DNA from: a virus
Taxonomy: Duplodnaviria; Heunggongvirae; Uroviricota; Caudoviricetes
Direction: 5' to 3' (one strand)
DNA: 64,000 nucleotides
Virus record (IMG/VR): IMGVR_UViG_3300045988_024527
Location: 29,796 to 93,795 of that record
Shown here: positions 42,345 through 64,000 of the stretch, piece after piece
Layout: each line of letters starts with the position of its first letter
Position numbering within the stretch: position 1 is the first letter of the stretch
Program-made: the position numbers and the translations under genes
The notes under the pieces: generated by a model
The model's input: only the letters and a program-made list of their open reading frames with translations
The model's database searches: none
Told to the model about the DNA's origin: nothing

Positions 42345-42430
42345 GATTTTTAGATAGGCTAAATTACACATCAACGGGGAGGGAATGACCTTCCCCACTA
42401 AATAAAGTCCTAAACTGGAGATTCAAAAAA
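42345..42430 (+). repeat. cassette boundary type A (promoter + stem-loop + conserved RBS leader)
   Basis: TTGACA-17-TAAATT then GGGGAGG-GAATGAC-CTTCCCC hairpin then ACTAAATAAAGTCCTAAACTGGAGATTC..ATG; copies at 43385, 44636, 45397, 45990. Confidence 0.75.
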
Positions 42431-50598: not shown

Positions 50599-51180
50599 TC
50601 AAGAGTATTTTTTAGGCAGCAATGCACTGCGCTTGTTACTCTCTTCACTCAATAGTGCGATAAAATCATCGCTTTTACCTTTCCACGGGCTGAATGAAGG
50701 GATATGCTCGCGGATAGCCTCAATCACTGTCTTAAGTGCTGTGTTCTTCATCCACCAATCAGAGTCTGCTGATGCTACCACGTAGTATCCACCGTCATCA
50801 GTTAAAATTGGCTCTGAAATACATGGTGAAATCAAAGTGGTGATGATTGACCCATTGTTCATGTAGTATGTGCGCTTCATAACCTTTTCAAGAAGCTTGT
50901 GAAGGTCACCAAACAATGTTACAAGTTCTTTGTGGTCAATATCTTTTTCTAGGTTTGCTCGATACTTCAATAGTGCGGCATCAACCTCTCTGTCATTGAA
51001 CTTGAAATATTGAACTTCTTCAATAAGGCAAACACTGATATTGTTGACATTCATAGTCAACTTGCAAACTTTTGCAGGAGAGTTGATACTTGGTTGAAAA
51101 AGTGCAATACACCCTTCAATATTTCCAAAGTGTTGTACTAGTGTCACTTGTGGAGTAATATTCTGTTGCTCTTCGGACAT
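50599..51180 (-). CDS. hypothetical protein
   Basis: 193 aa. Confidence 0.5.
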   Translation of the reverse strand: MSEEQQNITPQVTLVQHFGNIEGCIALFQPSINSPAKVCKLTMNVNNISVCLIEEVQYFKFNDREVDAALLKYRANLEKDIDHKELVTLFGDLHKLLEKVMKRTYYMNNGSIITTLISPCISEPILTDDGGYYVVASADSDWWMKNTALKTVIEAIREHIPSFSPWKGKSDDFIALLSEESNKRSALLPKKYS

Positions 51181-51524
51181 TACAGTTTCCTCATTAAATA
51201 CTTTTTAAGTTGTGTGTTAGGTTTCTCAAAAACTTCTATAGAAGATATCTTGACAGATTCACCACGCATACCAGTATGTTTGAATATGTAGTACTCTAAC
51301 ATCCCTATATACTTTGCTGGTAAGTCATGCTTGACATATACCGTCACAGAATCTTCAAACTCAACAACCTTTGTACCATCTTTGTAGTTAAACTCTTTAG
51401 GATGGTCGTAGTTGTCTATGTCGTACATTAAAAAGAGTCTTTTACGTTGTAAGTCAAGCTTATTTGTTAAAGACTCTTTGATATCTGAGAAGTTTTTGTA
51501 CACTGTGACATGGAGCTTACTCAT
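51180..51524 (-). CDS. hypothetical protein
   Basis: 114 aa. Confidence 0.45.
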   Translation of the reverse strand: MSKLHVTVYKNFSDIKESLTNKLDLQRKRLFLMYDIDNYDHPKEFNYKDGTKVVEFEDSVTVYVKHDLPAKYIGMLEYYIFKHTGMRGESVKISSIEVFEKPNTQLKKYLMRKL

Positions 51525-51810
51525 CGTTAAACTCTCTGACGAAGAAATAGTTGACTTTATTATTACCTACCATAAGGTCAAAGCAGGTATTCTCAAAAGG
51601 TTTGTTGTAGGCATCATATGAAACGTATGGGTCAGATACTTGCTTAGTACTTAACTTTTTACTTGATGGGTTTAAGAGGCCACCATATAGCTTCTTGATA
51701 GCCTCTTCTACAACAGACCAGATAATTTCGTCAGTAATTTCTTCGTACAGGTCAAGTTCACGCTCTAGTGAGAAGTCACAAATAGGGAAAACAACCTGTA
51801 CTTTACTCAT
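51517..51810 (-). CDS. hypothetical protein
   Basis: 97 aa. Confidence 0.45.
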   Translation of the reverse strand: MSKVQVVFPICDFSLERELDLYEEITDEIIWSVVEEAIKKLYGGLLNPSSKKLSTKQVSDPYVSYDAYNKPFENTCFDLMVGNNKVNYFFVREFNDE

Positions 51811-52205
51811 TAATGAATCACCTGTGAGACTTGAATTGCTTCAGTTACTGACAAGTCACCTACTTTCTCTTCTTTGATAAAAGTGAAGGTAAGTTCAACA
51901 GGCTCTTGCTCTTCTTGCTCAACTGGAATGCCATTAAGCTCATCAAAGATTGATTGAGTTGTCCAGTCTTCTCCACCATCTGGATAGTGGATTGCATAAA
52001 GAGGAAACTCTAAATTATACCAAGCAAAAACAGGACAACCATCGGCATCATCTCGGCATCTGTGGAGATATGTGTTTGTACCTTCAAAATGCAAATGAAG
52101 ATTACCATTCTTCTCAAAGAGAAGAGCATCTTTCAGGTCTAGTTCCTCATTTTCGCTGTAACGACTGACATCAACTTTAACGTGGATATGACTATTATTA
52201 TTCAT
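51810..52205 (-). CDS. hypothetical protein
   Basis: 131 aa. Confidence 0.45.
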   Translation of the reverse strand: MNNNSHIHVKVDVSRYSENEELDLKDALLFEKNGNLHLHFEGTNTYLHRCRDDADGCPVFAWYNLEFPLYAIHYPDGGEDWTTQSIFDELNGIPVEQEEQEPVELTFTFIKEEKVGDLSVTEAIQVSQVIH

Positions 52206-52596
52206 AAAAACCTCTCTCTGCTTGTTCGATTTTTGCTCTTAAAACTTCACAACGTTCTATGTGATATCTGGCCTCATTCTCATGTATTGCCAAAGTTCTT
52301 TCAAGAACTGTTTTATAGTAACTCGCAAGCTGCTCTCTTGTCAATGGGTGTTCTGAAATAATATCAAGGCCACTTTCACCTAAAGTGTTAAACTGCCCGT
52401 GTTCATTTACATGGTAAGTCTCAAACTTGAACAGGCCGTTGTTAGCAGATTCAATAGGTGAGAGTTTAACAAGTTCTACAGTAAACCGTGTATACACCTT
52501 GTCACCTCTTGAAACTACATTGCTTCCAACAATGCGTACAAGAGAACCATTACGAGTGTACTTAAAAGTTCCAAAGTCACTAGCCCAAAGTTTCAT
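52198..52596 (-). CDS. hypothetical protein
   Basis: 132 aa. Confidence 0.45.
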   Translation of the reverse strand: MKLWASDFGTFKYTRNGSLVRIVGSNVVSRGDKVYTRFTVELVKLSPIESANNGLFKFETYHVNEHGQFNTLGESGLDIISEHPLTREQLASYYKTVLERTLAIHENEARYHIERCEVLRAKIEQAERGFYE

Positions 52597-52606
52597 AGTT
52601 TTCTCC

Positions 52607-52636
52607 TTAGAAAATAAAAAGGCTCCCGAAGGAGCC
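52607..52636 (-). terminator. intrinsic terminator (minus strand)
   Basis: GGCTCC-TTCG-GGAGCC + TTTTTATTTT on minus strand. Confidence 0.65.
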
Positions 52637-52646
52637 TATGAAGATA

Positions 52647-53111
52647 TTACTTTGGATATACACTGTCAAGATAAATGTCAGCTTCCATTCTACGTCTGTT
52701 TTTCAGTCCGTTTGAAGTGACCTTCTGACCTTTAACTGTAACCTTGTTCCACCACTGCATAGCTTCTGCACAACCGACCTTATTACCATCGTTGTGGCGC
52801 TTGATAAATGTGGAGTCCTGCATAGCCGTGATACCAATGTTGTATGTTTCACTTACAAGTGCATCAAACTCATTCTGAGAAGTTGGAACCTTGATGGCTT
52901 TGTTAACTGCTGCAACGAACTTTTCAACATCTGCAAGAAGATACTGTTCAGCTTGTTCAGCAGTAATTTTCATACCCATCTTAACAGGTTTACCAGCAAT
53001 ACGGATAGTCCCATACCCAATTGTGGGGATTCCAGCAGAATCTTCGTAAGCCTCCAGCTTAAGACCTTCAAAGAACTTAATAGCTTCTAAACCTTTTCTT
53101 GAGAGTTGCAT
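52647..53111 (-). CDS. endolysin, T4-lysozyme-like muramidase (GH24)
   Basis: FEGLKLEAYEDSAGIPTIGYGT catalytic motif (Glu/Asp/Thr triad pattern). Confidence 0.8.
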   Translation of the reverse strand: MQLSRKGLEAIKFFEGLKLEAYEDSAGIPTIGYGTIRIAGKPVKMGMKITAEQAEQYLLADVEKFVAAVNKAIKVPTSQNEFDALVSETYNIGITAMQDSTFIKRHNDGNKVGCAEAMQWWNKVTVKGQKVTSNGLKNRRRMEADIYLDSVYPK

Positions 53112-53743
53112 TATACCCCTCCTACTGGGTTAACTGTAACTGTTGCTGCATTAGATGTTACAGAGCCACCTGCACCTGTTACAACACAAGTGTATGAACC
53201 AGCGTCAGAAGGTGCTACTGACTGTTTTGTGTAAGTTGCAGAATTGGCACTAGGGATGTCCTCACCATCCTTTTTCCACTGATATCCAGTGGCGTTAGTT
53301 GCTAGAATGCTTAGAGTAAGTGTGCCACCCTCATTGACTGTTTGATTGGTTGGTTGCTGAGTGATTGATGGTGGCTTGATAGCATCCTTCAGCTTAGCAT
53401 TCAGCATTGAGAAGGGCTTAACTCTTGCCAACCATTCACAATAAACTGTATCAACATCTTTACCATTGATAATTGCATATTGTAAGTCCATGAAGAAGTC
53501 AGAAGTTCTCATTTGAGCACCGATGCTGTAAAGCAACTCATCACTAAATGGGACTTTATAGTCTGGTTTGTAGTCAAACTTCTCAACTTCTGCAATATCA
53601 GCTTCAGGCCAATATGAACTATAGGTAAGTGGTAAAATAGCTTCTTGATATGTTCTAAAATCATATCTCTTACCAGCCTTTACATTTGCAATGAAGCCCT
53701 TCACAAACTCTTTGAAGTCTGGGTAAGTCCTTGCTTTAATCAT
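53111..53743 (-). CDS. hypothetical protein with C-terminal Ig-like domain
   Basis: Ig-like GSYTCVVTGAGGSVTSNAATVTVN; N-terminal half paralogous to 53740-54111. Confidence 0.5.
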   Translation of the reverse strand: MIKARTYPDFKEFVKGFIANVKAGKRYDFRTYQEAILPLTYSSYWPEADIAEVEKFDYKPDYKVPFSDELLYSIGAQMRTSDFFMDLQYAIINGKDVDTVYCEWLARVKPFSMLNAKLKDAIKPPSITQQPTNQTVNEGGTLTLSILATNATGYQWKKDGEDIPSANSATYTKQSVAPSDAGSYTCVVTGAGGSVTSNAATVTVNPVGGV

Positions 53744-54111
53744 TTCTTTTTAGCCTCTAAATGTGCGTTTAGTCTAAAATAACCTTTGTGATGTGGAGAT
53801 ACATCACCAACAACAATACCTTTAACCTTATAACCTTTACCAATTACATACTGGATATCCATAAGGAATCTTCCAAGACCAACAATATGGAACATTGGAT
53901 ATAATAGATTCTCAGAGTCTGGAATATTGATTTCAGGTTTGTAGGTGCGTTGTTCGCTTGTTGGTGTAATATCTTCTTCAGGCCATTTACTGAGTCTCCA
54001 TGTCAAAGGTGTTGGGATAACATCATTAAGGTTGTACCTTTCACCATTTTGCACGGAATTGATATAGGATTGTAGGAAGCAATAAAAGTCTTTTGCACTC
54101 TTAGCCTTCAT
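53740..54111 (-). CDS. hypothetical protein, paralog of N-terminal domain of 53111-53743
   Basis: shared FLMDIQYVI / FMDLQYAI and flanking similarity. Confidence 0.5.
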   Translation of the reverse strand: MKAKSAKDFYCFLQSYINSVQNGERYNLNDVIPTPLTWRLSKWPEEDITPTSEQRTYKPEINIPDSENLLYPMFHIVGLGRFLMDIQYVIGKGYKVKGIVVGDVSPHHKGYFRLNAHLEAKKK

Positions 54112-54159
54112 TAAATATCCTTATAAATAGTTAAAGGGGCATCAGCCCCATATTCACAC

Positions 54160-54750
54160 TTAAGCTTTGGTCTTAAGTAGGTTCTTAAGTTTTTTAAGAT
54201 TCATACTCTCATCAAACTTAAAACCAAATCCATTGACATAATCAATGAACTCGGATTTCTTACTGAGTGACAATGCGTAACTCATATCAAAGTTCTTACT
54301 TGTTTCTGCGTCTGGACTAGAGTTCACATCAAATGAAATTTCTGTAGGTTCTTGCTTACTTTTTCTCATATTATCAACCAACAAACATGTATAGTTTGCT
54401 GGATAGAAGTTTACACTACCATCAACGTAGCTGTACTTATTATTATGGGTAAGGTTGGAAAATACCTTAAGAAATGTTTCTGGGTCGTGGCAAACAAGTT
54501 TGAATTGGCTGCTCTCTCCAAGCGCAGCTAATGAGTACGGACTTTCACTATCAAAGTCATAATTTGGATTCGATGCCGTCACTGTTACACGCATCAAGTT
54601 ATTAGCAATAGTCTTCTGTTTAAAAGAATTTGGGACATAGTGAAGACCTCTATCACACTGATTAACTAATTCTTTCAATAGGTCATTTGCATATGGTGAG
54701 TTAATTGATACAGAGCCATCACTATTGTAATTAAAACTTACTGTTAACAT
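54160..54750 (-). CDS. hypothetical protein
   Basis: 196 aa. Confidence 0.5.
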   Translation of the reverse strand: MLTVSFNYNSDGSVSINSPYANDLLKELVNQCDRGLHYVPNSFKQKTIANNLMRVTVTASNPNYDFDSESPYSLAALGESSQFKLVCHDPETFLKVFSNLTHNNKYSYVDGSVNFYPANYTCLLVDNMRKSKQEPTEISFDVNSSPDAETSKNFDMSYALSLSKKSEFIDYVNGFGFKFDESMNLKKLKNLLKTKA

Positions 54751-54977
54751 TTTTCAGTTCTCCTGCGGTTTATAATTTTGCTGCAATAGAGAAACGAAGT
54801 AAACTCACTGGAAGAAACCATTAAGTGTTGTTCACTAGATTGAGCCATTGCCCTGAAATACATTCCAGTCAAAGCATCATAGTGACTATTCTTTCCAATT
54901 GAGGTTATATAGCCATGACTCTTTGCAGTTTGATATAAATCTATAATATCTGCGATTTCTAATTGGGAACTACACAT
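54744..54977 (-). CDS. hypothetical protein
   Basis: 77 aa. Confidence 0.35.
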   Translation of the reverse strand: MCSSQLEIADIIDLYQTAKSHGYITSIGKNSHYDALTGMYFRAMAQSSEQHLMVSSSEFTSFLYCSKIINRRRTEKC

Positions 54978-55369
54978 AGATAATCCTCTTGTCTTCTGTA
55001 ATTTTGAAAGAACAGGTACAGACCAATTTCAGAGGATGAATAGTAGATTAACTCTACCCTTTTTGATTCCTTACAGTGATTGGTATTCTTACCTTTCTTC
55101 GGTTTATTTGATTTTCTCATTAAGTCTCCTTTGTAGAACAAGGCAGACCTACAGCTTTAAGTAAGATGGTACAGTAATCCATACAACAAGTCAAGAACTA
55201 TTGCAAGTTAAAAAAGTTGTTGACAAAGTACTTGACAAGGTGTAGGCTTATAAATACTTAGAAGATAACTTAAAAGGTTCCTCTAAAAAGGCTATTTAAA
55301 CAGATATCTTTCTGGATATCTATCTTTTATCTTAAAAGCCTTTTAAGAGGTCTTATAAGAGGCATACCA

Positions 55370-55741
55370 ATGAAAAACAGAACAAACAAAGGCCAGTTTA
55401 AAAAAGGCCAGTCTGGAAACCCATCTGGAAGACCGAAAGGCTCACGTAACAAAAGCTCTCTCGTAAAAGCTCAACTGACCATTGATAATTCTGCTGAGTT
55501 TGCTGCAAAGTTGTTTGAGGCAATTGTTACAAGGGACGCTGCTAAGCTTGCAGAGTTCGGTTTGACGACTGACGATGTAAACCTGAAGTCGATGATGGAA
55601 GCTGGTAAAACTATCATGACTCACTCAGCAGGTGAGATGAAAGCGATTGCAGCAGACACTAAGAAGACCCCTGATAACGGCGGTCAGTCTCAGACAGATA
55701 ACAAACCAACGTTCTCTGCTGTTGCAACGCTTAAAAAATAA
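55370..55741 (+). CDS. hypothetical protein
   Basis: 123 aa; N-terminal GNPSGRPKGSRNK motif. Confidence 0.45.
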   Translation: MKNRTNKGQFKKGQSGNPSGRPKGSRNKSSLVKAQLTIDNSAEFAAKLFEAIVTRDAAKLAEFGLTTDDVNLKSMMEAGKTIMTHSAGEMKAIAADTKKTPDNGGQSQTDNKPTFSAVATLKK

Positions 55742-55822
55742 TTTTAAAAGGTGTTGACAGGCTCTACAAAGTTGCTCTAAAGTCTGTCACATCAAACAAC
55801 AAATGAGAGAAGAGAGTAAAAT

Positions 55823-57238
55823 ATGAGCGAATTATTTAAACATGCGCACCTTCATGCAGGTCGAACTGAAAATGGTGCTGTAAACCATACTTCATCAATG
55901 TCTGCTCTTGTAGACTTTTACAAAGCTGCTGGTTCAAGCCGTAGCAACGTAGAAATCTTACCAGACCTGTTCTACAAAGCTTTGCGTGAGGATGTTGATG
56001 TTGCAGTTCGTATTTTACTGCATATGCGAGATGTACGAGAAGGTATGGGTGAGCGTAAAGCCTTCAGAACTGTTTTGCTTCAAGCGATTGAAGACAAAGT
56101 TTTAGAGCCTGTACAGGTTCTTCGCATTATGGATAAGAATGCAGAACTTGGTCGTTTTGATGACTTCAAAATCTTCGTAGGTACTCGTTTCGAGACAGAT
56201 GCCTTCAAACATTTAGAAGCAGCATTACTAGACCCTGCAACAGCAGGTTTGGCGGCTAAGTGGTTACCACGAGTCAAACCACGTCATAAGCAGTTTGTAA
56301 AACGTTTCTGCAAGTTTGCCAACTTGAGTGAGAAAGAGTACCGCACACTGTTGTCTGCACTATCTGATACAGTTGAGCAAAAAATCTCTGCTAATGAGTT
56401 TGGTAAGATTGACTACAGTAAGATTCCTTCTCTTGCTGCTGCACGTTACCAAAAGCTGTTTAACCGTAAAGATGGAGAACGTTACAAAGCTTACATCGAG
56501 TCCTTATCAAAAGGTGAGACTAAGATTAACGCTGGTGCTGTTTACCCATACGATGTGATTAAATCTGTCAAGCATGGTAATGCAGATGTTGCTAATGAGC
56601 AGTGGAAAGCACTACCAAACTGGATGGCAGAAGGTGAAAACATCTTGTGTATGTCTGATGTGTCAAGTTCAATGTCTTGGGTGAATTTTGGCTCCATTAC
56701 TGCTCTGGATATTGGTGTATCACTTGCCTTGTATGTAGCAGAACGCAATACAGGTTGCTTTAAGAATGAGTTGATGGTTTATTCAACAAACCCTCACTTC
56801 ATCGAACTGAGTGGTGATTTACGAAACCGTCATCGTCAGGTGATGCAACACGTTGAATATGGCTCAACTAACTTACAAGCAGCTTTTGACCGCATTCTTG
56901 AGACAGGCAAAAGAAACAACTTGACTCAGAAAGATATGCCAAGTAAGCTTATCATCTTCTCCGATATGGAGTTCAATCATGTTGATGGGGCTGATGGTCG
57001 TACAAACTTTGAAGCAATTCAGAGTAAGTACAAAAAAGCTGGATATGAGATGCCACAACTGGTATTCTGGTACTTAGCAAACCGTAATGGTACTTGCGAA
57101 GTGTCTGTTAAGGATAACGGTGTAGCAATGGTATCTGGTTTCTCTCCAGCCACTTTAAAAGCTTTGCTTGGTGGTGAGAAGTTTGACCCAATCAGCGTAA
57201 TGCTCAAAGCAGTAATGATTGACCGTTATATCTGGTAA
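55823..57238 (+). CDS. vWA-like domain protein
   Basis: MIDAS-like CMSDVSSSMS; 471 aa. Confidence 0.5.
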   Translation: MSELFKHAHLHAGRTENGAVNHTSSMSALVDFYKAAGSSRSNVEILPDLFYKALREDVDVAVRILLHMRDVREGMGERKAFRTVLLQAIEDKVLEPVQVLRIMDKNAELGRFDDFKIFVGTRFETDAFKHLEAALLDPATAGLAAKWLPRVKPRHKQFVKRFCKFANLSEKEYRTLLSALSDTVEQKISANEFGKIDYSKIPSLAAARYQKLFNRKDGERYKAYIESLSKGETKINAGAVYPYDVIKSVKHGNADVANEQWKALPNWMAEGENILCMSDVSSSMSWVNFGSITALDIGVSLALYVAERNTGCFKNELMVYSTNPHFIELSGDLRNRHRQVMQHVEYGSTNLQAAFDRILETGKRNNLTQKDMPSKLIIFSDMEFNHVDGADGRTNFEAIQSKYKKAGYEMPQLVFWYLANRNGTCEVSVKDNGVAMVSGFSPATLKALLGGEKFDPISVMLKAVMIDRYIW

Positions 57239-57256
57239 AAAGTTTTAAAAAGGGTA

Positions 57257-57285
57257 TTGACAATGTGTTTAATACCCTTTAATAT
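57257..57285 (+). promoter_or_regulatory. consensus sigma70 promoter upstream of tRNA cluster
   Basis: TTGACA-17 bp-TAATAT. Confidence 0.6.
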
Positions 57286-57403
57286 GTTCTACATAGAAAC
57301 GAAATGAGAGCTTTTCTAAGATACTGAAAAATATTTTAAAAAAGTTCTTGACAATCACTAAAAAATAATGTTAAAGTGGTTACATAGAGTTTGAAAAGTT
57401 TAT

Positions 57404-57480
57404 CTCTGTTTAGCTCAGATTGGTAGAGCGTTCCGTTTGGGGCGGTAAGGCCGGAGGTTCAAGTCCTCCAACAGAGACCA
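57404..57480 (+). tRNA. tRNA-Pro (anticodon UGG), hand-folded
   Basis: acceptor CTCTGTT/AACAGAG, T-arm GGAGG-TTCAAGT-CCTCC, loop TTTGGGG, CCA encoded. Confidence 0.55.
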
Positions 57481-57487
57481 AATTAAT

Positions 57488-57565
57488 GTTCCAGTAGACA
57501 AAATGGTATAGTCACCACTCTTTCAAAGTGGATATCTGAGGGTTCAAATCCCTTCTGGAACGCCA
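57488..57565 (+). tRNA. tRNA-Glu (anticodon UUC), hand-folded
   Basis: acceptor GTTCCAG/CTGGAAC, anticodon stem CCACT/AGTGG loop CTTTCAA, CCA encoded. Confidence 0.55.
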
Positions 57566-57650
57566 GTTTTGACAGAAGACCGATTACAGCAAACAACTTT
57601 TACTTTTCGCGCATAGAAAACATAAAAAGCTTGGTCTGGTCATTAAGAAT

Positions 57651-57727
57651 CGCGGGTATAGAGAAAGGGCGTCTCACATGTCTCATTAGCATGGTAACGG
57701 TTGGTTCGACTCCAACACCCGCCTCCA
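57651..57727 (+). tRNA. tRNA-Met/Ile2 (anticodon CAU) with unpaired 1:72
   Basis: anticodon stem CATGT/GCATG loop CTCATTA, T-arm GTTGG-TTCGACT-CCAAC, C1-C72 mismatch. Confidence 0.45.
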
Positions 57728-57812
57728 AATTTACAGAAGACCGTTTACAGCAAAATTTAATGAAATTTTTAGCGGAAAAAATTGAAAGATACGGTCTGGT
57801 AATACTAAACAT

Positions 57813-57889
57813 GGTTAGGAAGCACATAAGGTATGTGCGGTCGCCTGTTAAGCGAATGGCACAGGGTTCGAGTCCCTGACTAACCGCCA
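57813..57889 (+). tRNA. tRNA-Asn (anticodon GUU)
   Basis: D-arm GCAC-ATAAGGTAT-GTGC, loop CTGTTAA, T-arm CAGGG-TTCGAGT-CCCTG, CCA. Confidence 0.6.
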
Positions 57890-57898
57890 AATTTAAAT

Positions 57899-57986
57899 GT
57901 GTCGTTATCCCGTAGATGGTAGCGGTGGGGACTGTAAATCCCTTGTCATTGAGACTCGGTAGGTTCGACTCCTACACGGCACACCA
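57899..57986 (+). tRNA. tRNA-Tyr (anticodon GUA), class II with long variable arm
   Basis: 88 nt; anticodon loop CTGTAAA; T-arm GTAGG-TTCGACT-CCTAC; CCA. Confidence 0.55.
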
Positions 57987-58008
57987 ATACTTAGCGAGAT
58001 ACTTAGTT

Positions 58009-58437
58009 ATGAGAGATGAAGTATACAAATCACAACTTGGTATGAGTTTAGGAACTGCACAAAACAGACTAGTAAAAGATTTGCTATTCGATTTGATATG
58101 TAAAACAAATCAAAATATATGTTTTCAGTGCGGAAAAGAAATGACTAGGGATGATTTCTCCATCGAGCATAAGATTCCGTGGAGACATAGTGAAAATGCA
58201 AAAGAGCTTTTCTTTTCATTAGATAATATTTCTTATAGTCATCTTAAATGTAATATGAAAGCAGCAAGACCAGCACAGGTATATGATAGGAAGCCTAAAC
58301 CAATTAAACACGGCACTGCACACAGCTACTCTAAAGGTTGTAGATGCGAGGAGTGTAGGCTGGCTAAGAATGCTGAGGGCAGGAAGCACTATAACCCAGA
58401 AAGGCGTAGGAAGAAGTATTTAAGAAATGGTACATAG
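58009..58437 (+). CDS. HNH endonuclease
   Basis: CFQCGKEM..FSIEHKIPW..HLKCN HNH motif; start set after tRNA-Tyr (track ORF 57916 overlaps tRNA). Confidence 0.6.
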   Translation: MRDEVYKSQLGMSLGTAQNRLVKDLLFDLICKTNQNICFQCGKEMTRDDFSIEHKIPWRHSENAKELFFSLDNISYSHLKCNMKAARPAQVYDRKPKPIKHGTAHSYSKGCRCEECRLAKNAEGRKHYNPERRRKKYLRNGT

Positions 58438-58443
58438 GGTTTT

Positions 58444-58519
58444 GGGGTGTTAGTTTAGACGGGTAAAATACTGGATTGTCTCTCCTGAGCCGCGAGTTCG
58501 ATTCTCGCACACCTCGCCA
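58444..58519 (+). tRNA. tRNA, anticodon unresolved (non-canonical anticodon arm; GUC/Asp possible)
   Basis: clear acceptor GGGGTGT/ACACCTC, T-arm GCGAG-TTCGATT-CTCGC and CCA; anticodon stem not clean. Confidence 0.4.
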
Positions 58520-58946
58520 ATTTTGAGAGGGCTATTTAGCCCCTCCCTTAAAGGGTTCTTACGAGTATCCTTTAAAGGAGCAGAAGACCAAATACAGCAA
58601 GTTACTTAAAATTTCAAGCCAATTCAATTTTGAAAAATTTAAAACTTGGTCTGGCTCAACAAATTTACAGAAGACCGTTTACAGCAAAACTTAAACAATC
58701 TATTTCTCCGGTAAAGAAAAGGCGAAGGTTCGATTCCTTCACTCGGCAGATGTCGAGTTGGTGTAATGGTAGCACTTAAGATGATAAACAACGGTCTGGT
58801 AATTATCTTTGTAGATAAGTTATTAAGCTTCCCTGTGAGTATGCGACCACAAAGGTGAAGGGTAAATTCTAGATTTAAACCCAAAAAGGCACATCGCTAC
58901 AGACCTTAAGCAAGTCTGGGTAGCTTATCTACAAAGATAATTTAAT

Positions 58947-59022
58947 GGAAGTGTAGCAGAATGGTGATGCGGCAGACTTTTAATCTGACAGGCGATGGGT
59001 TCGAATCCCTCCACTTCTACCA
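58947..59022 (+). tRNA. tRNA-Lys (anticodon UUU)
   Basis: acceptor GGAAGTG/CACTTCT, anticodon loop CTTTTAA, T-loop TTCGAAT, CCA. Confidence 0.5.
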
Positions 59023-59026
59023 ATAT

Positions 59027-59103
59027 GGTTCAGTCGCAGATAAGGTAATGCAAGGGTCTCATAAGCCCTATGAATGTGGGTTCGATTCCCATCTGAACCT
59101 CCA
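59027..59103 (+). tRNA. tRNA-Met (anticodon CAU)
   Basis: acceptor GGTTCAG/CTGAACC, anticodon stem AGGGT/GCCCT loop CTCATAA, T-arm GTGGG-TTCGATT-CCCAT, CCA. Confidence 0.55.
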
Positions 59104-59111
59104 ATTTATAG

Positions 59112-59606
59112 GTGATACTTATGATTTGTGCTAACAAAGATTGCGGAAATGAAGCCGTTAAAGGTGGAAAATTTTGCTCACGCTCTTGTTCTGCAAAAGT
59201 GAACAACAAGAAACACCCAAAGAGAAGTCAGGAAGGCTCTTGCCATTCATGCGGAAAGGTAACGCCAAAAGCGAGAAAATACTGTGACGAATGTATTGCA
59301 GGTGGAGTCATGAAAAAACATAAGACCCATCATGAAAAAAGCAAAGCCAAATCACTGCACGTTAAAAAGTCTCGTGACAGACTGAAGAAGGCTTTAGTTG
59401 ATTACAAGGGTGGTTGTTGTTCAATTTGTGGTTACAATAGGTGCATAAAGGCTCTAGAGTTTCACCACTTAGACCCTAAGACAAAAGACTTCACAGTAAG
59501 TAAAAAACACTACTCACTGGCTACAATGCAGTCTGAAGTTGATAAGTGTGTCTTGCTTTGTGCAAATTGTCACAGAGAAGTACACGAAGGGGTAACAATG
59601 CTGTGA
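59112..59606 (+). CDS. HNH endonuclease
   Basis: EFHHLDP..CVLLCANCHREVH HNH motif plus N-terminal Cys-rich region. Confidence 0.65.
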   Translation: MILMICANKDCGNEAVKGGKFCSRSCSAKVNNKKHPKRSQEGSCHSCGKVTPKARKYCDECIAGGVMKKHKTHHEKSKAKSLHVKKSRDRLKKALVDYKGGCCSICGYNRCIKALEFHHLDPKTKDFTVSKKHYSLATMQSEVDKCVLLCANCHREVHEGVTML

Positions 59607-59675
59607 AAGCACATATGGATGTGCGTTCGGCTGATAACCGAAAGGCAGAAGGTTCGAATCCTTCTCACAGTACCA
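59600..59675 (+). tRNA. tRNA-Ile (anticodon GAU)
   Basis: D-arm GCAC-ATATGGAT-GTGC, anticodon stem TTCGG/CCGAA loop CTGATAA, T-arm GAAGG-TTCGAAT-CCTTC, CCA; 5' end overlaps HNH stop. Confidence 0.6.
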
Positions 59676-59690
59676 ATTTCAAAAAAGTTG

Positions 59691-59719
59691 TTGACATTGA
59701 GATGTGACTACTTTATAGT
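59691..59719 (+). promoter_or_regulatory. consensus sigma70 promoter
   Basis: TTGACA-17 bp-TATAGT. Confidence 0.55.
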
Positions 59720-59923
59720 AACCTTAGTTTTCGTTGCGTAGCGTCTATTTTGCAAATTTAAAATAAATGCAAACGACAATGTTTTTCTGGCAGTAGCTTG
59801 ATAGGCTAAACACCAGTGAGGTCTTCCAATCCCTCATCAAAGAATTTGGCGTACTCGCCCACGGTATGATTAATAAGGTGGGCATCTTTAAGGGCTTTCT
59901 AAGAGAGTCTTTAAAGATAATTA

Positions 59924-60005
59924 CGGGGCGTATCTCAGCTGTCTTCTAAACAGCCGTTAACCGAGTAAGTGGAGTATGCGGGTTCGAGTCCTGCCGCCTC
60001 GACCA
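59924..60005 (+). tRNA. tRNA-like gene, non-canonical (possible anticodon UCU/Arg; no clear D-arm)
   Basis: acceptor CGGGGCG/CGCCTCG, T-arm GCGGG-TTCGAGT-CCTGC, CCA; stem-loop GCTGT-CTTCTAA-ACAGC. Confidence 0.4.
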
Positions 60006-60060
60006 ATTTTGGAGAAATCATGAAAACTTGTATTAGGTGCAAACTTAGCAAGGATGAATA

Positions 60061-60175
60061 GGTAAGGTGTTGAATGTTAAAAAAAAAAAATCCCATTATT
60101 TGACGAGATAGAAAACAACTCAGTAACAAATGGTGACTCTATCGAGCTAATAAAAAAAGTACAAACTCAATCCGC
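60061..60175 (+). repeat. direct repeat copy 1 (start of plasmid unit; repeated at 63889-64000)
   Basis: GGTAAGGTGTTGAATGTTAAAAA..CCCATTATTTGACGAGATAGAAAACAACTC..GCTC near-identical except poly-A length and one substitution. Confidence 0.85.
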
Positions 60176-60995
60176 TCACTTAATACTGAGTGATATTCCT
60201 TACGGAATAGGAGCTGATGATTGGGATGTACTTCATAAAAACTCGAACAATGCCTATCTAGGTTCAAGCCCCGCACAAAAATCAGCTGGTGCCATTTTCA
60301 AAAAAAGAGGAAAGCCTATAAATGGCTGGTCTGATGCAGATAGAAAAATACCTTTAGAGTATCAACAATGGTGTGAAGAGTGGGCGAGGGAATGGTATCG
60401 TGCCTTAAAACCAGGAGCTAGTGCAATCATTTTCGCTGGTAGGAGATTTTCACACAGATGTATTTGCGCAATGGAAAATGCTGGATTTAACCTCAGAGAT
60501 ATAATCGCATGGATGCGAACAAAAGCTCCTCATCGTGCACAAAGGCTAAGCTGCGTATATGAAAGGCGTGGGGACCAATATAACAAAGAAAAATGGGACG
60601 GCTGGAGGGTTGGAAACTTACAGCCAACATTTGAGCCAATACTATGGTTTTCAAAACCCTACAAAATAGGAGGGACTATTGCTGATAACGTTCTATTGCA
60701 TGGTGTTGGAGCATATAACCAAGATGCGTTCACAGCAAGAAATGGAAAACCTGAAAATGTAATACATGCTGGCTTTGAGAGAAATGAAGGTGGATTACAT
60801 CCAACGCAGAAGCCTGTTTCGCTGATGAAAGCGCTAATAGAACTAACTACTCAAGAAGGACAGCTAGTAATAGATCCATTTAGTGGTAGCGGTTCAACTC
60901 TTGTGGCAGCAAAAGAGCTGGGCAGAAACTATATAGGCTTCGAGTTTAACCCAGCATATGTAGAAATAAGCAAAAAAAGATTAGAAGATAAATAA
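60074..60995 (+). CDS. Type II DNA methyltransferase (amino-MTase, motif IV before motif I); frameshifted in A12 tract
   Basis: motif IV SDIPYG, motif I VIDPFSGSGST; ATG at 60074 is out of frame with the body (frame opens at 60081) because of 12-A run at 60079-60090; in-frame in second copy. Confidence 0.75.
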
Positions 60996-61922
60996 CTACT
61001 TAAGTGACAGTATATTATTATCTGTCACTTTATTTATTTGGTCTATCCTACTGTCTATTTTATGCATTTTTATCAACGCACTGACAGCCTCATCCTTGGT
61101 CATCATTAGCATCCTTGTACGTTCAGAAGATAGAAATTCTATAGCCATTTTTTTTGAAACGGCAATACCCTCAGTTGTGGCTGATTTTTCATCACTCCAA
61201 AGCTCAGCTATCCTACTATCATAGCTTAACATTGTTCTATTTATATTCACCCAATATTGCACACTATCTTTGCTAGGGTTGAGTAAAGATACAGATTTAA
61301 ATATTTCACCAAGAAGGTTTTTACTATCTTCAGTTGTTGCTATAGCTGAATATCTTATGAGAACGGCCAGGTGTGTATATGTAAAAACACAAACATTTCG
61401 CAATATAGCTTGCTGATATATTTGACTTGATTTTGTTGGCAACTGATATATTGGACATACAACCATTGCAAAGTCTTTGGTATTTCTCCAACCATCCATA
61501 GCCTGAACTTTAAAGTCTTTTTGATTTTTTGCAGTTCTACTCAAGCGAAATACTTTGGCATCTGCCACAAATGAATAGCTATCGCAAACAACCTCAACAT
61601 CAGCCGCATCTGCCCTTTCAGTCAAAACAATACTATTTAACCCTAAATATTTAAAACATTCTGATATCAGTGCATCTGTATACTTTGAGTACAGTTTTTC
61701 TTCACTTGAATCATGATCATATGACTCAGGTATTGCTGTGCATAACCTAAGGTGGTCTAGTAATGCTTGACTTCCAGATTTCTTAACCTCATCTATTATT
61801 TCATTTTCAACTCTGCTTGAGTCGTTAACAAAGTGACCACTTAGTTTTACTATTTCATCAATCCAGTAACGCCTTCTTATTATTGCATCTTCAGTAATGA
61901 ATTTAAAATTACATAAGTCCAT
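60996..61922 (-). CDS. putative Type II restriction endonuclease
   Basis: 308 aa ORF convergent and abutting the MTase; possible PD-(D/E)xK-like CD..VADAK; no direct motif proof. Confidence 0.45.
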   Translation of the reverse strand: MDLCNFKFITEDAIIRRRYWIDEIVKLSGHFVNDSSRVENEIIDEVKKSGSQALLDHLRLCTAIPESYDHDSSEEKLYSKYTDALISECFKYLGLNSIVLTERADAADVEVVCDSYSFVADAKVFRLSRTAKNQKDFKVQAMDGWRNTKDFAMVVCPIYQLPTKSSQIYQQAILRNVCVFTYTHLAVLIRYSAIATTEDSKNLLGEIFKSVSLLNPSKDSVQYWVNINRTMLSYDSRIAELWSDEKSATTEGIAVSKKMAIEFLSSERTRMLMMTKDEAVSALIKMHKIDSRIDQINKVTDNNILSLK

Positions 61923-62394
61923 TTTTAATACCCGATATAATTAATCAATAACTCAGTATAATCTCGCGATCATAACAGATTTTTTCATCTGCCGAATAAT
62001 AGAACTATCAGTTTATATGGCTAGAGATTCGCTTGTATTTACCATAACATCCGTTGCGTGCACCGCCTGAGAGGCTCTCAGGGCGTTTCTGACGGGAAAC
62101 CGGTAAAACAGGCAACAAACTACCCGAAAACCCGCCAGAAACGCGCAGGCTCTGTTTTTACGGCATGCATGAGTATGCGCGCAAGTGCATAGCGCGGAAA
62201 TTCACGCCATTCAGCCGGGGTAAGTCCTGTTTCCGTCGTTCTTCCCACCCGAAAACGGTGAACGGGGACGCAATTTATTGCGTGGCCGTGAGGCGTTGCC
62301 GGCACAGCCGGAAAACCCGTTTTCAGCACGTTCAGGAAGGGGGCCGATGTACGAATGGTTCAGGGAACGGATCTGAGGTAATCCGGTAGTTACT

Positions 62395-62525
62395 TTGTAG
62401 TTTATCTGTAGTTTTCTTGTAGTCTATTAGTAGTCCGCCACGGTTTTTGTAGTTTTTTTGTAGTCTGCCATCACTAATGCAAAACGTTTTTTGTAGTTTA
62501 TCTGTAGTTTTTGGTTGCTCAGATG
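62395..62525 (+). repeat. iteron-like direct repeats (TTGTAGTYT units)
   Basis: TTTGTAGTTTATCTGTAGTTTT twice plus degenerate TTGTAGTCT copies. Confidence 0.6.
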
Positions 62526-62808
62526 GTCATGCTTGCATGACCATCAAAGAATAGGACGCTTTTTAGCCAAATACCCCTTAACCTACGGAGAGCGCCCTAC
62601 CAAAAAAGATGATTTTTTATCCCTTAAATGGTCATACACCATACGCAACCGCGATTTTCATCGCAATTGCATGAATTAAAAGGTAAAAACTGAATTTCCC
62701 GTTTATTTATGTAATACGCAACGTATTACAACCACCTGTAATCACATGAAAATAAAGAAATAAGATGTAATACCGGCGTATTACACGTACGCTGACCAGC
62801 GAAAAAAG

Positions 62809-62958
62809 TTATAACGCTTCCCTGCCGACAGGCGGGCCAAAATCCACCGGGGCGTGCAGGTTCTCTTCAGTAACCTGCGCCATTAAATCAAAAAGGTCAT
62901 ATTCGCCGGGAAGCTGCGTATCAGTCGCATCCCGTTGTTCATCATATTCAGATGGCAT
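62809..62958 (-). CDS. small acidic hypothetical protein (plasmid)
   Basis: 49 aa ORF with ATG, just upstream of ori region; weak. Confidence 0.25.
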   Translation of the reverse strand: MPSEYDEQRDATDTQLPGEYDLFDLMAQVTEENLHAPVDFGPPVGREAL

Positions 62959-63029
62959 GGGGTGATATCCAGTAGCTGAAAGGTTGTTAGCGGGTTTCGG
63001 GGCGCAGCCCTGAACCAGTCACGTAGCGC

Positions 63030-63860
63030 TAGCGGAGTGTATCCGAGCTTATTATGTTGGCATGAGTGCGATGATCAGGAAAGTGCTTCATGTGGCAGGA
63101 GAAAAATGCAGCAGCGGAGCGTAAGCAGAATATGCGATACAGGAGATATTCCGCTTCCTCGCTCACTGACTCGCTGCGCTCGGTCGTTCGGCTGCGGCGA
63201 GCGGTACAGGCTTACGGGCGGGGCGGAAGTGTCCGGGAAGATGCCAGGGAGAGACGGAAAAGGGAAGCGAGAAGGTCGCGGCGAAGCCGTTTTTCCATAG
63301 GCTCCGCCCCCCTGACAAGCATCGCGAAATCTGACGCTCAAATCAGTGGTGGCGAAACCCGACAGGACTTAAAGATCCCAGGCGTTTCCCCCTGGTAGCT
63401 CCCTCGTGCGCTCTCCTGTTCCTGCCTTTCGGTTTACCGGTGTCATTCCGCTGTTATGGCCGCGTTTGTCTCATTCCACGCCTGACACTCAGTTCCGGGT
63501 AGGCAGTTCGCTCCAAGCTGGACTGTATGCACGAACCCCCCGTTCAGTCCGACTGCTGCGCCTTGTCCGGTAACTATCGTCTTGAGTCCAACCCGGAAAG
63601 ACACGATAAAACGCCACTGGCAGCAGCCATTGGTAACTGATTTACGGAGCGAAGCGTTAAGTGTAATAGAGTTCTTGAAGTGAGCGGCTTACTACAGCTA
63701 CACTGGAAGGACAAATTAGGTCACTGCGCTCCGTGAAAGCCAGTTACCACGGTTCAGAAGTTCCCCAACTAACTGAACCCTGAAAAAGCCGCCTCCCCAG
63801 GCGGTTTTTTCTTTTCAAAAGGCTACGACGAAAGGTTATCCTGCGTCAAGATAACTTTGG
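63030..63860. other. ColE1/p15A-family plasmid replication origin region
   Basis: long stretches match remembered p15A/pMB1 ori (TTTTCCATAGGCTCCGCCCCCCTGACAAGCATC..GCGTTTCCCCCTGG..GTTCGCTCCAAGCTGG..CACGAACCCCCCGTTCAG). Confidence 0.85.
63711..63808 (+). ncRNA. RNA I-like antisense replication control RNA
   Basis: position and similarity to ColE1/p15A RNA I; ends in terminator GCCGCCTCCCCAGGCGG + TTTTTTC. Confidence 0.6.
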
Positions 63861-63888
63861 TAGTTATAATGAAGTGAATAAACCATTG

Positions 63889-64000
63889 GTAAGGTGTTGA
63901 ATGTTAAAAAAAATCCCATTATTTGACGAGATAGAAAACAACTCCGTAACAAATGGTGACTCTATCGAGCTAATAAAAAAAGTACAAACTCAATCCGCTC
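63889..64000 (+). repeat. direct repeat copy 2 (restart of plasmid unit, MTase 5' end in frame with 8-A tract)
   Basis: matches 60061-60175; ATG at 63899 gives MLKKIPLFDEIENNSVTNGDSIELIKKVQTQSA. Confidence 0.85.

What the first reader, a model, noticed from the sequence alone, without database searches (positions are those of the whole stretch)
60074..61922. Convergent Type II restriction-modification pair on the small plasmid
The methyltransferase has motif IV (DIPYG) before motif I (DPFSGSGST). The abutting convergent 308 aa ORF has no clear family signature beyond a possible PD-(D/E)xK-like D..DAK. The specificity is unknown, and it neighbours a phage encoding many anti-defence candidates.
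Basis: partly seen in the sequence, partly recalled or inferred. Interest (0 to 1): 0.45.

Follow-up and report, generated by a model that had tools for sequence, protein, structure and literature searches.

The report
Known HindIII-type RM; phage stole methylase
The two genes are an already catalogued HindIII/EcoVIII-type restriction-modification pair from a common small E. coli plasmid, and they sit beside phage DNA because this Felix O1-like phage lineage has captured a copy of the methylase gene, through which the plasmid was probably threaded during assembly.

Summary
The 308-aa ORF (60996-61922, minus strand) is a HindIII-family Type II endonuclease: Pfam RE_HindIII E=1.5e-105, the catalytic D...D-A-K is conserved, and it is 100% identical to RefSeq WP_000362418.1. 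It is 82% identical to the EcoVIII-type enzyme. The partner is a beta-class N6-adenine methyltransferase, 85% identical to the EcoVIII-type one. The predicted target is AAGCTT. The backbone is ColE1-type.

At the stated coordinates the methyltransferase is not an intact ORF. A run of 12 A (60079-60090) shifts the frame. The plasmid norm is 8 A.

The plasmid is not merely next to the phage. In the source scaffold, 1 unit plus 1,055 bp of plasmid lies inside a phage HNH/endonuclease VII gene, with phage DNA on both sides. Ten contigs from other assemblies carry the same two junctions with the methyltransferase alone. The phage lineage therefore captured an orphan methyltransferase, whose substitutions are mostly synonymous. 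The restriction gene and origin in this window are most likely a co-resident plasmid looped in by a k=55 assembler, less likely a real cointegrate.

The RM pair is already known. The phage capture is a new example of a known anti-restriction strategy.

The parts
60020..60061 (+). Truncated 5' end of the phage HNH/endonuclease VII gene: 13 codons, then a TAG made by the A at 60060.
   Evidence: 100% match to phage vB_EcoM_CRP22 gp_21 up to 60058.
60058..60059 (.). Left junction between phage and plasmid-derived DNA (plasmid coordinate about 331-333 of NZ_AP027826.1), with little or no microhomology.
   Evidence: The identical junction occurs in 10 contigs from other assemblies.
60064..60069 (+). 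Shine-Dalgarno-like AAGGTG, 4 nt upstream of the M start. It is the only upstream plasmid sequence kept in the phage-borne copy.
   Evidence: Read directly from the sequence. Function is inferred.
60074..60995 (+). Methyltransferase copy 1, a beta-class N6-adenine MTase of the M.EcoVIII/M.HindIII type. It is a hybrid: the phage-lineage head (60059-60122) joined to a plasmid-type tail. As written it is frameshifted.
   Evidence: Pfam N6_N4_Mtase E=6.9e-49; 85% identical to the EcoVIII-type MTase; frames; comparison of the alleles.
60079..60090 (+). A12 tract that shifts the frame. Plasmid-context copies have A8. Phage-context copies elsewhere have A8 or AAAAAAAAGAAAAA, both in frame.
60192..60206 (+). 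Motif IV, DIPYG (catalytic DPPY-type).
60873..60899 (+). Motif I, DPFSGSGST (AdoMet binding).
   Evidence: aligned to the DpnA, CcrM and RsrI structures.
60996..61922 (-). HindIII-family Type IIP restriction endonuclease, 308 aa, intact.
   Evidence: Pfam RE_HindIII E=1.5e-105 over 282 of 285 profile positions; PDB HindIII E=6e-37; 100% identical to WP_000362418.1 and 82% to the EcoVIII-type REase.
61554..61601 (-). Catalytic codons D108 ... D121-A-K123 of the endonuclease.
   Evidence: They align with HindIII D93, D108 and K110 (residues named in PMC3479186; positions).
61869..61877 (-). Arg codon cluster AGA-AGG-CGT at R codons 16-18. It is at the same position as the rare-Arg cluster shown to throttle EcoVIII REase translation.
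   Evidence: PMC6456624.
61923..63884 (.). Remainder of the ColE1-type plasmid unit: the upstream region of R, a 49-aa hypothetical ORF at 62809-62958, and the replication origin region with RNAI at 63712-63813 (+). GC is 0.49, against 0.37 for the RM cassette.
63885..64000 (+). Start of methyltransferase copy 2: plasmid-type upstream region with TATAAT at 63865-63870, ATG at 63901, and A8 at 63906-63913. It is in frame and runs off the window end. In the source scaffold it is a 305-aa ORF with the phage-lineage tail, followed by the right junction.

Best explanation
There are two layers.

(1) The gene pair is an EcoVIII/HindIII-family Type IIP restriction-modification cassette carried by a very common small ColE1-type enterobacterial plasmid. 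By homology, the endonuclease is a homodimeric PD-(D/E)xK enzyme that cuts A^AGCTT. The monomeric beta-class methyltransferase makes N6-methyladenine at the first A of AAGCTT and so protects the host. The genes converge and abut, and no C-protein gene is present. As shown for EcoVIII, a cluster of rare AGA/AGG codons at R codons 16-17 probably slows endonuclease synthesis so that methylation stays ahead.

(2) The cassette touches phage DNA because a Felix O1-like (Felixounavirus) lineage once captured a 1,055-bp plasmid segment. That segment holds only the methyltransferase gene, from 15 nt upstream of its ATG to 121 nt past its stop. The capture was by illegitimate recombination into the phage HNH/endonuclease VII gene and replaced 168 bp. 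The phage keeps it as an orphan methyltransferase, presumably to self-methylate its roughly 40+ AAGCTT sites and escape this widespread plasmid RM system.

In the sample behind this window the phage and the plasmid co-occur. The shared gene acts as a repeat in the assembly graph. The k=55 assembler most likely walked from phage, through the phage-type head of M, round the whole plasmid, and out through the phage-type tail of M back into phage. The copy in the finding is therefore a chimera of the phage head and the plasmid tail.

Shown: family membership, both junctions, methyltransferase-only relatives, and the substitution pattern. Inferred: AAGCTT specificity, the anti-restriction role, and the assembly-loop origin of the R and origin segment.
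For: RM identity:
- Pfam RE_HindIII E=1.5e-105 and N6_N4_Mtase E=6.9e-49.
- HindIII crystal-structure sequence E=6e-37, with D93/D108/K110 matched by D108/D121/K123.
- R is 100% and M 99.3% identical to the annotated pair on NZ_AP027826.1.
- R is 82% and M 85% identical to the pair on a 4,315-bp pEC156-like plasmid. That plasmid's Arg-codon counts (20 with 18 rare; 15 with 13 rare) match those published for EcoVIII (PMC6456624).
- The characterised isospecific MTases EcoVIII, HindIII and LlaCI share only 50-62% identity yet all target AAGCTT (PMC5974420).
- RNAI is found by Rfam.
- The identical REase is indexed in about 2,600 blocks of the public assembly collection, mostly on 2-5 kb contigs.

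Phage capture:
- The source-like scaffold (ENA ERZ28577067 scaffold_225) is 100% identical to window 50996-64000. It shows plasmid coordinates 331 -> 3824 -> 1 -> 1385, then phage DNA resuming 168 nt downstream in the same gene.
- The right junction lies in an imperfect 16-nt microhomology, CATCATT.G.ATCCTT.
- The two M copies differ only at their outer ends: 3 differences in the first 64 nt of copy 1 and 10 SNPs in the last 285 nt of copy 2. The middle 710 nt are identical.
- The tail SNPs are absent from about 30 plasmid contigs, but 8 of 10 are shared with a phage contig from another sample.
- Within M, 6 of 7 substitutions are synonymous. In the useless 40-codon R remnant, 3 of 3 are non-synonymous, one of them a stop.
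- Ten contigs from other assemblies, including an 89,366-bp phage-size contig, have the same two junctions with M only and no R or origin.
- The phage part of the window has 40 AAGCTT sites and shows no avoidance. A tested Felixounavirus is 'remarkably sensitive' to RM systems (PMC8594841).

Assembly loop:
- The scaffold ends overlap by exactly 55 nt.
- Every junction-side SNP lies 50 nt or less from the next, i.e. under k=55.
- 94,395 bp exceeds the 84-91 kb range of the genus, while 94,395 - 3,823 = 90,572 bp fits it.
- This is the only one of 11 phage contigs that contains the loop.
Against: - No reads or coverage data were available, so a genuine phage::plasmid cointegrate cannot be excluded. 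A single homologous crossover within M would give exactly this sequence.
- The phage-type head in this window has A12, which is out of frame. If real, this particular phage's methyltransferase is broken or depends on slippage, which sits awkwardly with purifying selection.
- AAGCTT specificity, methylation of phage DNA and the anti-restriction benefit are all inferred from homology and context, not measured.
- That SPAdes-type assemblers traverse simple loops once is my own knowledge, not a tool result.
- The middle of M is identical in both copies. Five of the eight positions there that differ from NZ_AP027826.1 carry the allele of the phage contig from another sample. The true sequence of the co-resident plasmid's M gene is therefore uncertain.
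Confidence: 0.75

Rival explanations
1. A real phage::plasmid cointegrate. The resident RM plasmid integrated into the phage-borne methyltransferase gene by a single (Campbell-type) homologous crossover. A virulent Felix O1-like genome would then physically carry a complete R-M system and a ColE1 origin, flanked by two reciprocal hybrid M copies.
For: The sequence is exactly the expected product: copy 1 is phage head plus plasmid tail, and copy 2 is plasmid head plus phage tail. The shared 1 kb at about 98.5% identity and a high-copy plasmid make such recombination plausible. The scaffold has no Ns and closes on itself.
Against: An assembler walking a repeat graph gives the identical path. At 94,395 bp the genome would exceed the 84-91 kb range of the genus. 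None of 10 related contigs with the same insertion carries the loop. The SNP spacing fits graph branches at k=55.
Confidence: 0.15
2. A pure artefact. Phage and plasmid are unrelated sequences joined by concatenation or chimeric misassembly, and the differences near 60059-60122 (A12 and the SNPs) are low-quality contig-end errors.
For: The switch at 60058/60059 is abrupt and falls inside a phage gene. Three discrepancies lie within 64 nt of the junction. The junction is absent from IMG/VR, GTDB genomes and JGI metagenomes.
Against: Phage DNA resumes 168 nt further along the same gene. The same two junctions occur in 10 contigs from other assemblies and assemblers. The junction-side SNPs are shared across samples and are mostly synonymous in M.
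Confidence: 0.02
3. The A12 tract is real and functional. It would be a slippery homopolymer that makes methyltransferase output depend on transcriptional slippage or ribosome sliding, or a phase-variable on/off switch for the phage-borne methyltransferase.
For: In phage context the tract is polymorphic: A8, AAAAAAAAGAAAAA and A12. In about 22 plasmid-context contigs it is fixed at A8, with a single A7. From my own knowledge, not tested here, runs of 9 or more A are known sites of RNA polymerase slippage in E. coli.
Against: Only this one scaffold has an out-of-frame length, and all 10 other phage copies are in frame. Long homopolymers are prone to PCR and sequencing stutter. No read data are available.
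Confidence: 0.1

Closest known systems
EcoVIII R-M system of plasmid pEC156 (E. coli E1585-68; Mruk, Kaczorowski and co-workers)
   Same: It sits on a small ColE1-type plasmid. The R and M genes converge and abut with no spacer. No C-protein gene is present. The cassette is low in GC (0.37) against a backbone of 0.49. It is rich in AGA/AGG Arg codons, with a cluster at R codons 16-18. Protein identity to the pair on the pEC156-like plasmid is 82% for R and 85% for M (PMC6456624, PMC4743918).
   Different: It is a distinct allele group on a different and smaller backbone (about 3.8 kb against 4.3 kb). The nucleotide identity of M is only about 76.5%. The cluster codons are AGA-AGG rather than a tandem of one rare codon. 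Activity and specificity have not been tested for this allele.
HindIII R-M system of Haemophilus influenzae Rd (structures 2E52, 3A4K)
   Same: The endonuclease belongs to the same Pfam family, matched over its full length. The catalytic Asp/Asp/Lys are conserved, and so is the block A(D)AK.FRLSRTAKNQKDFKV around them. The methyltransferase is of the same beta class.
   Different: The relationship is distant (E=6e-37). The M.EcoVIII-M.HindIII pair shares only about 50% identity (PMC5974420). From my own knowledge, not tested here, the HindIII genes are arranged in tandem on the chromosome rather than convergently on a plasmid.
LlaCI R-M system of Lactococcus lactis plasmid pAW153
   Same: It is plasmid-borne, convergent and specific for AAGCTT. 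Its M is 62% identical to the window's M.
   Different: Its R is only 28% identical. A 94-nt spacer separates the genes. The host is Gram-positive.
Phage-encoded orphan DNA methyltransferases used for anti-restriction by self-methylation (reviewed e.g. in PMC10286901 and PMC12707154, papers listed that I did not open)
   Same: A methyltransferase gene without its endonuclease sits inside a virulent phage genome, in the same orientation as its neighbours. It appears to be under purifying selection, in a phage with many target sites.
   Different: Here the donor can be named: a specific plasmid R-M cassette at about 98.5% nucleotide identity. Both recombination junctions and a decaying remnant of the endonuclease gene are still visible. 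No phage record in INPHARED carries it; the best tblastn hit is 41% identical.

Membership tests
HindIII-family Type IIP restriction endonuclease (Pfam PF09518) | Significant full-length match to the family profile. | tested here: met
   E=1.5e-105, 353 bits against a cut-off of 25.3; residues 20-299 cover profile positions 3-284 of 285. NCBIfam has no model that matches.
HindIII-family Type IIP restriction endonuclease (Pfam PF09518) | Catalytic PD-(D/E)xK residues equivalent to HindIII Asp93, Asp108 and Lys110. | tested here: met
   D108, D121 and K123 align with them in the phmmer alignment to 3A4K. The residues are named in PMC3479186.
HindIII-family Type IIP restriction endonuclease (Pfam PF09518) | Cleaves A^AGCTT. 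| not testable with these tools
   Inferred from 82% identity to the EcoVIII-type enzyme. No AAGCTT occurs in the 3.9 kb of plasmid, but only about one is expected by chance.
Beta-class N6-adenine DNA methyltransferase (Pfam PF01555; M.EcoVIII/M.HindIII/M.LlaCI group) | Profile match, with motif IV (DPPY-type) N-terminal to motif I (FxGxG). | tested here: met
   E=6.9e-49 over profile positions 2-221 of 221. DIPYG is at 60192-60206 and DPFSGSGST at 60873-60899.
Beta-class N6-adenine DNA methyltransferase (Pfam PF01555; M.EcoVIII/M.HindIII/M.LlaCI group) | Intact open reading frame at the reported coordinates. | tested here: not met
   The A12 tract puts the ATG at 60074 out of frame, so the longest ORF is 174 aa and lacks motif IV. 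The second copy, starting at 63901, is intact at 305 aa in the source scaffold.
EcoVIII-type plasmid R-M module | ColE1-type replicon carrying convergent, abutting R and M genes, with no C-protein gene. | tested here: met
   RNAI found by Rfam. Stop codons lie at 60993-60995 and 60996-60998. The closest plasmid record annotates only M, R and a 49-aa ORF.
EcoVIII-type plasmid R-M module | Cluster of rare Arg codons at R codons 16-17. | tested here: met
   AGA-AGG-CGT at codons 16-18. In R, 12 of 16 Arg codons are AGA or AGG; in M, 14 of 18 (PMC6456624). Its effect on translation was not tested for this allele.
Phage orphan methyltransferase (anti-restriction by self-methylation) | Methyltransferase gene inside a phage genome, with phage DNA on both sides and no linked endonuclease. 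| tested here: met
   Ten contigs from other assemblies have identical junctions and carry M only. In the window's own scaffold an R gene lies between the two M copies, which is ambiguous.
Phage orphan methyltransferase (anti-restriction by self-methylation) | The gene is maintained by selection and the phage genome carries target sites. | tested here: met
   Substitutions in M are 6 synonymous to 1 non-synonymous, against 0 to 3 (one a stop) in the R remnant. There are 40 AAGCTT sites in the 60-kb phage part.
Phage orphan methyltransferase (anti-restriction by self-methylation) | Phage DNA is methylated at AAGCTT and resists the cognate endonuclease. | not testable with these tools
   This needs methylation-sensitive sequencing, or HindIII digestion of virion DNA.
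Phase-variable or slippage-controlled gene with a homopolymer tract | Tract length varies between on and off frames among close relatives. | tested here: inconclusive
   In phage context: A8 in 7 contigs, an in-frame 14-nt tract in 3, and A12 in 1, the only out-of-frame case. In plasmid context: A8 in about 22 contigs and A7 once. No read-level data are available.

The most novel reading that the evidence does not exclude
The scaffold is literally true. A virulent Felix O1-like phage exists as a cointegrate with a whole ColE1 R-M plasmid, formed by recombination through its previously captured methyltransferase gene. A lytic phage would then carry and could deliver a complete restriction-modification system plus a plasmid origin. 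This would be a route for plasmid hitch-hiking or transduction, and for phage-borne restriction of competitors. The A12 tract would act as a slippage-dependent throttle on the phage-side methyltransferase copy.
Probability: 0.12. Interest if true: 0.6.

Novelty: new member of a known kind. Interest (0 to 1): 0.33.

Why it matters
The R-M pair itself adds nothing new. The identical endonuclease is already in RefSeq and appears in thousands of public assemblies, and its closest characterised relative, EcoVIII, is well studied.

The value lies in the context. The window preserves a recent, traceable transfer of a defence-system methyltransferase from a named plasmid cassette into a virulent phage lineage. 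Both illegitimate-recombination junctions are visible. A remnant of the endonuclease gene is decaying while the methyltransferase stays under purifying selection. The lineage recurs in many samples. This is a clean natural example of how phages acquire anti-restriction methyltransferases.

It is also a practical warning. Genes shared between a phage and a plasmid can make metagenome assemblers stitch a whole plasmid into a 'complete circular' phage genome, which creates false phage-encoded R-M systems.

Tried and rejected
1. I first treated the window as two unrelated records placed end to end, with a poor-quality contig start. I rejected this once the source-like scaffold showed phage DNA on both sides and other samples showed the same junctions.

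2. I searched for the 33-nt left junction in IMG/VR viral contigs, GTDB genomes and JGI metagenomes. There were no hits, so those collections say nothing either way.

3. Megablast and tblastn against deposited phage genomes found no phage record with this M or R. The best M hit is 41% identical, in an Aeromonas phage.

4. I asked whether the poly-A tract is a phase-variation site of the plasmid system. I rejected this because about 22 plasmid-context copies have A8 and one has A7.

5. I asked whether other contigs that yield the same 174-aa truncated M product share the A12 lesion. They do not. They carry other lesions, such as A7 or a GAA-to-TAA nonsense codon at codon 12.

6. NCBIfam has no family for the endonuclease, so only Pfam and PDB identify it.

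7. The original EcoVIII paper (PMC154532) is not held. The EcoVIII identity of the 4,315-bp comparison plasmid therefore rests on matching the published Arg-codon counts and the 62% identity to M.LlaCI.

8. The promoter and terminator scan gave counts no higher than shuffled sequence, so I make no claim about promoters beyond noting a TATAAT upstream of M copy 2.

9. I did not run structure prediction because the sequence evidence was already decisive.
Full report
**What is at the coordinates.** The minus-strand ORF at 60996-61922 (308 aa) is present and intact. That frame is not open from the ATG at 60074, however. The ATG is followed by TT and twelve A (60079-60090) and reads MLKKKNPII-stop. 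The motif-bearing frame has a TAA at 60078-60080 and no start codon until 60471, leaving a 174-aa ORF without motif IV. The two genes converge and abut exactly: TAA at 60993-60995, and CTA (TAG on the other strand) at 60996-60998.

**Family and closest relatives.**
- The 308-aa protein matches Pfam RE_HindIII at E=1.5e-105 over essentially the whole profile.
- It matches the HindIII crystal-structure sequences at E=6e-37.
- Its D108, D121 and K123 align with HindIII's catalytic Asp93, Asp108 and Lys110 (residues named in PMC3479186; positions).
- It is 100% identical to WP_000362418.1, annotated 'HindIII family type II restriction endonuclease' on the 3,824-bp E. coli plasmid NZ_AP027826.1. 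The adjacent methyltransferase there is 99.3% identical once the A tract is set to 8.
- The methyltransferase matches N6_N4_Mtase at E=6.9e-49.
- Against a 4,315-bp pEC156-like plasmid the proteins are 82% (R) and 85% (M) identical. I take that plasmid's pair to be EcoVIII for two reasons. Its Arg-codon counts (R: 20, of which 18 rare; M: 15, of which 13 rare) equal those published for EcoVIII. Its M is 62.9% identical to M.LlaCI, against 62% published.
[quoted passage not shown] AAGCTT is therefore the strong prediction for this pair, though it is an inference.
- The window's R gene has AGA-AGG-CGT at codons 16-18. This is the position where a rare-Arg cluster was shown to limit EcoVIII endonuclease synthesis and autorestriction (PMC6456624).
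- The cassette has GC 0.37 and the rest of the plasmid 0.49, as reported for pEC156.
- The backbone is ColE1-type, with RNAI at 63712-63813.
- The identical endonuclease is indexed in about 2,600 blocks of the public assembly collection, mostly on 2-5 kb contigs. The R-M pair is therefore already known and common.

**The junction with the phage.**
- Window 1-60058 is Felixounavirus DNA. It ends 39 nt into an HNH/endonuclease VII gene.
- The plasmid sequence is read for more than one unit: 63885-64000 repeats 60058-60177, with A8 instead of A12.
- A look-up of the endonuclease found ENA ERZ28577067 scaffold_225 (94,450 bp), which is 100% identical to window 50996-64000 and extends beyond it.
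- In that scaffold the plasmid segment runs NZ_AP027826.1 coordinates 331 -> 3824 -> 1 -> 1385, that is one unit plus a 1,055-bp duplication containing M. Phage DNA then resumes 168 nt further along the same endonuclease VII gene, followed by DUF7217, terminase and portal genes.
- The right junction lies in an imperfect 16-nt microhomology.
- The scaffold's ends overlap by exactly 55 nt, and the window crosses that joint at 42,360-42,414. The window was therefore taken from the circularised assembly.

**Two alleles of M.**
- The two M copies differ only near their outer ends. Copy 1 differs at 60060, at the A tract (A12 against A8) and at 60122. Copy 2 has ten SNPs in its last 285 nt. The middle 710 nt are identical.
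- The tail SNPs are absent from about 30 plasmid contigs.
- Inside M, six of the seven substitutions are synonymous; F290S is the exception. In the 40-codon remnant of R next to the right junction, all three are non-synonymous and one is a stop.
- These are therefore real substitutions in a lineage where M is under selection and the R fragment is not.

**Independent confirmation.**
- A Logan contig from SRR31513941 is a related phage with the same left and right junctions. It carries M as an intact 307-aa ORF and has no R or origin. It shares 8 of the 10 tail SNPs.
- Look-ups of two cluster members that carry the S290 marker found nine more contigs from other assemblies, including an 89,366-bp phage-size contig. 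All have identical junctions and M only.
- Other relatives of the phage lack any insert at this locus, and no deposited phage genome carries the gene.
- The phage lineage therefore made a single capture of a methyltransferase-only segment from this plasmid family.
- The phage part of the window has 40 AAGCTT sites and shows no avoidance. A tested Felixounavirus is reported as remarkably sensitive to RM systems (PMC8594841). Together these give a plausible selective reason, which is an inference.

**Why R and the origin appear inside the phage here.** There are two possibilities: an assembler path through the shared M repeat, or a true Campbell-type cointegrate. Both predict exactly the observed hybrid copies. 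I favour the assembly path for four reasons.
- All junction-side SNPs are spaced 50 nt or less apart, under the k=55 implied by the terminal overlap.
- The 94,395-bp circle exceeds the 84-91 kb range of the genus, whereas removing one 3,823-bp loop gives 90,572 bp.
- This is the only one of eleven phage contigs that has the loop.
- From my own knowledge, SPAdes-type assemblers traverse simple loops once by default.

Without reads this remains an inference.

**The A12 tract.**
- In plasmid context the tract is A8 in about 22 contigs and A7 once.
- In phage context it is A8 (7 contigs), AAAAAAAAGAAAAA (3 contigs, in frame) or A12 (this scaffold only, out of frame).
- It is either a miscalled homopolymer, a recent inactivating slip, or a slippage-dependent site. 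I cannot tell which.

**Verdict.**
- The family and likely specificity are clear: HindIII/EcoVIII type, AAGCTT.
- The methyltransferase copy at the given coordinates is frameshifted.
- The adjacency to the phage reflects the phage's own captured orphan methyltransferase rather than two replicons lying side by side.

Noticed in passing
window 42360-42414: The window crosses the joint of a circularised scaffold. The two ends of ENA ERZ28577067 scaffold_225 overlap by exactly 55 nt here, so the window comes from a 'complete circular' phage assembly of 94,395 bp.
   Followed up: yes
L031, L032, L034-L037 (plasmid contigs from other samples): Several small plasmid contigs have a truncated methyltransferase, for example a GAA-to-TAA nonsense codon at codon 12 or an A7 tract, next to an apparently intact 308-aa endonuclease gene. 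If both were real and expressed this should be lethal. Others (L029, L030, L033) have R broken as well. These could be low-coverage errors or natural decay of the system.
   Followed up: partly
L006 (NZ_CP064016.1, 10049-11893 of the record): The same R-M cassette, with its ColE1 remnants, lies between IS26 copies beside mcr-3.5 on an 87.7-kb IncF plasmid. Its methyltransferase is a mosaic, EcoVIII-like at the N-terminus and window-like at the C-terminus, so alleles of this family recombine.
   Followed up: partly
L018, L019 (13,956-bp metagenome scaffolds): Two copies of the R-M plasmid unit alternate with an ISL3-family transposase and msrA/msrB genes. This is either a plasmid multimer or cointegrate, or another repeat-driven assembly path.
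   Followed up: no
window 62394-62511: Four copies of a 22-nt direct repeat (TTTGTAGTTTATCTGTAGTTTT and variants) lie in the plasmid backbone between the R gene and the origin region. Their function is unknown.
   Followed up: no
window 57404-60002: The phage has a tRNA cluster (9 tRNAs by ARAGORN, plus a tRNA-like hit at 59924-60002 found only by Rfam) interleaved with HNH homing-endonuclease genes (57916-58437, 59112-59606). The locus just downstream varies among related phages, some of which carry PDDEXK_5 genes. It looks like a hotspot for gene insertion, and the methyltransferase landed there.
   Followed up: partly
window 62809-62958 (minus strand): A conserved 49-aa acidic ORF (WP_003978816.1, 'hypothetical protein') is the only other annotated gene on the closest plasmid. 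Its function is unknown.
   Followed up: no
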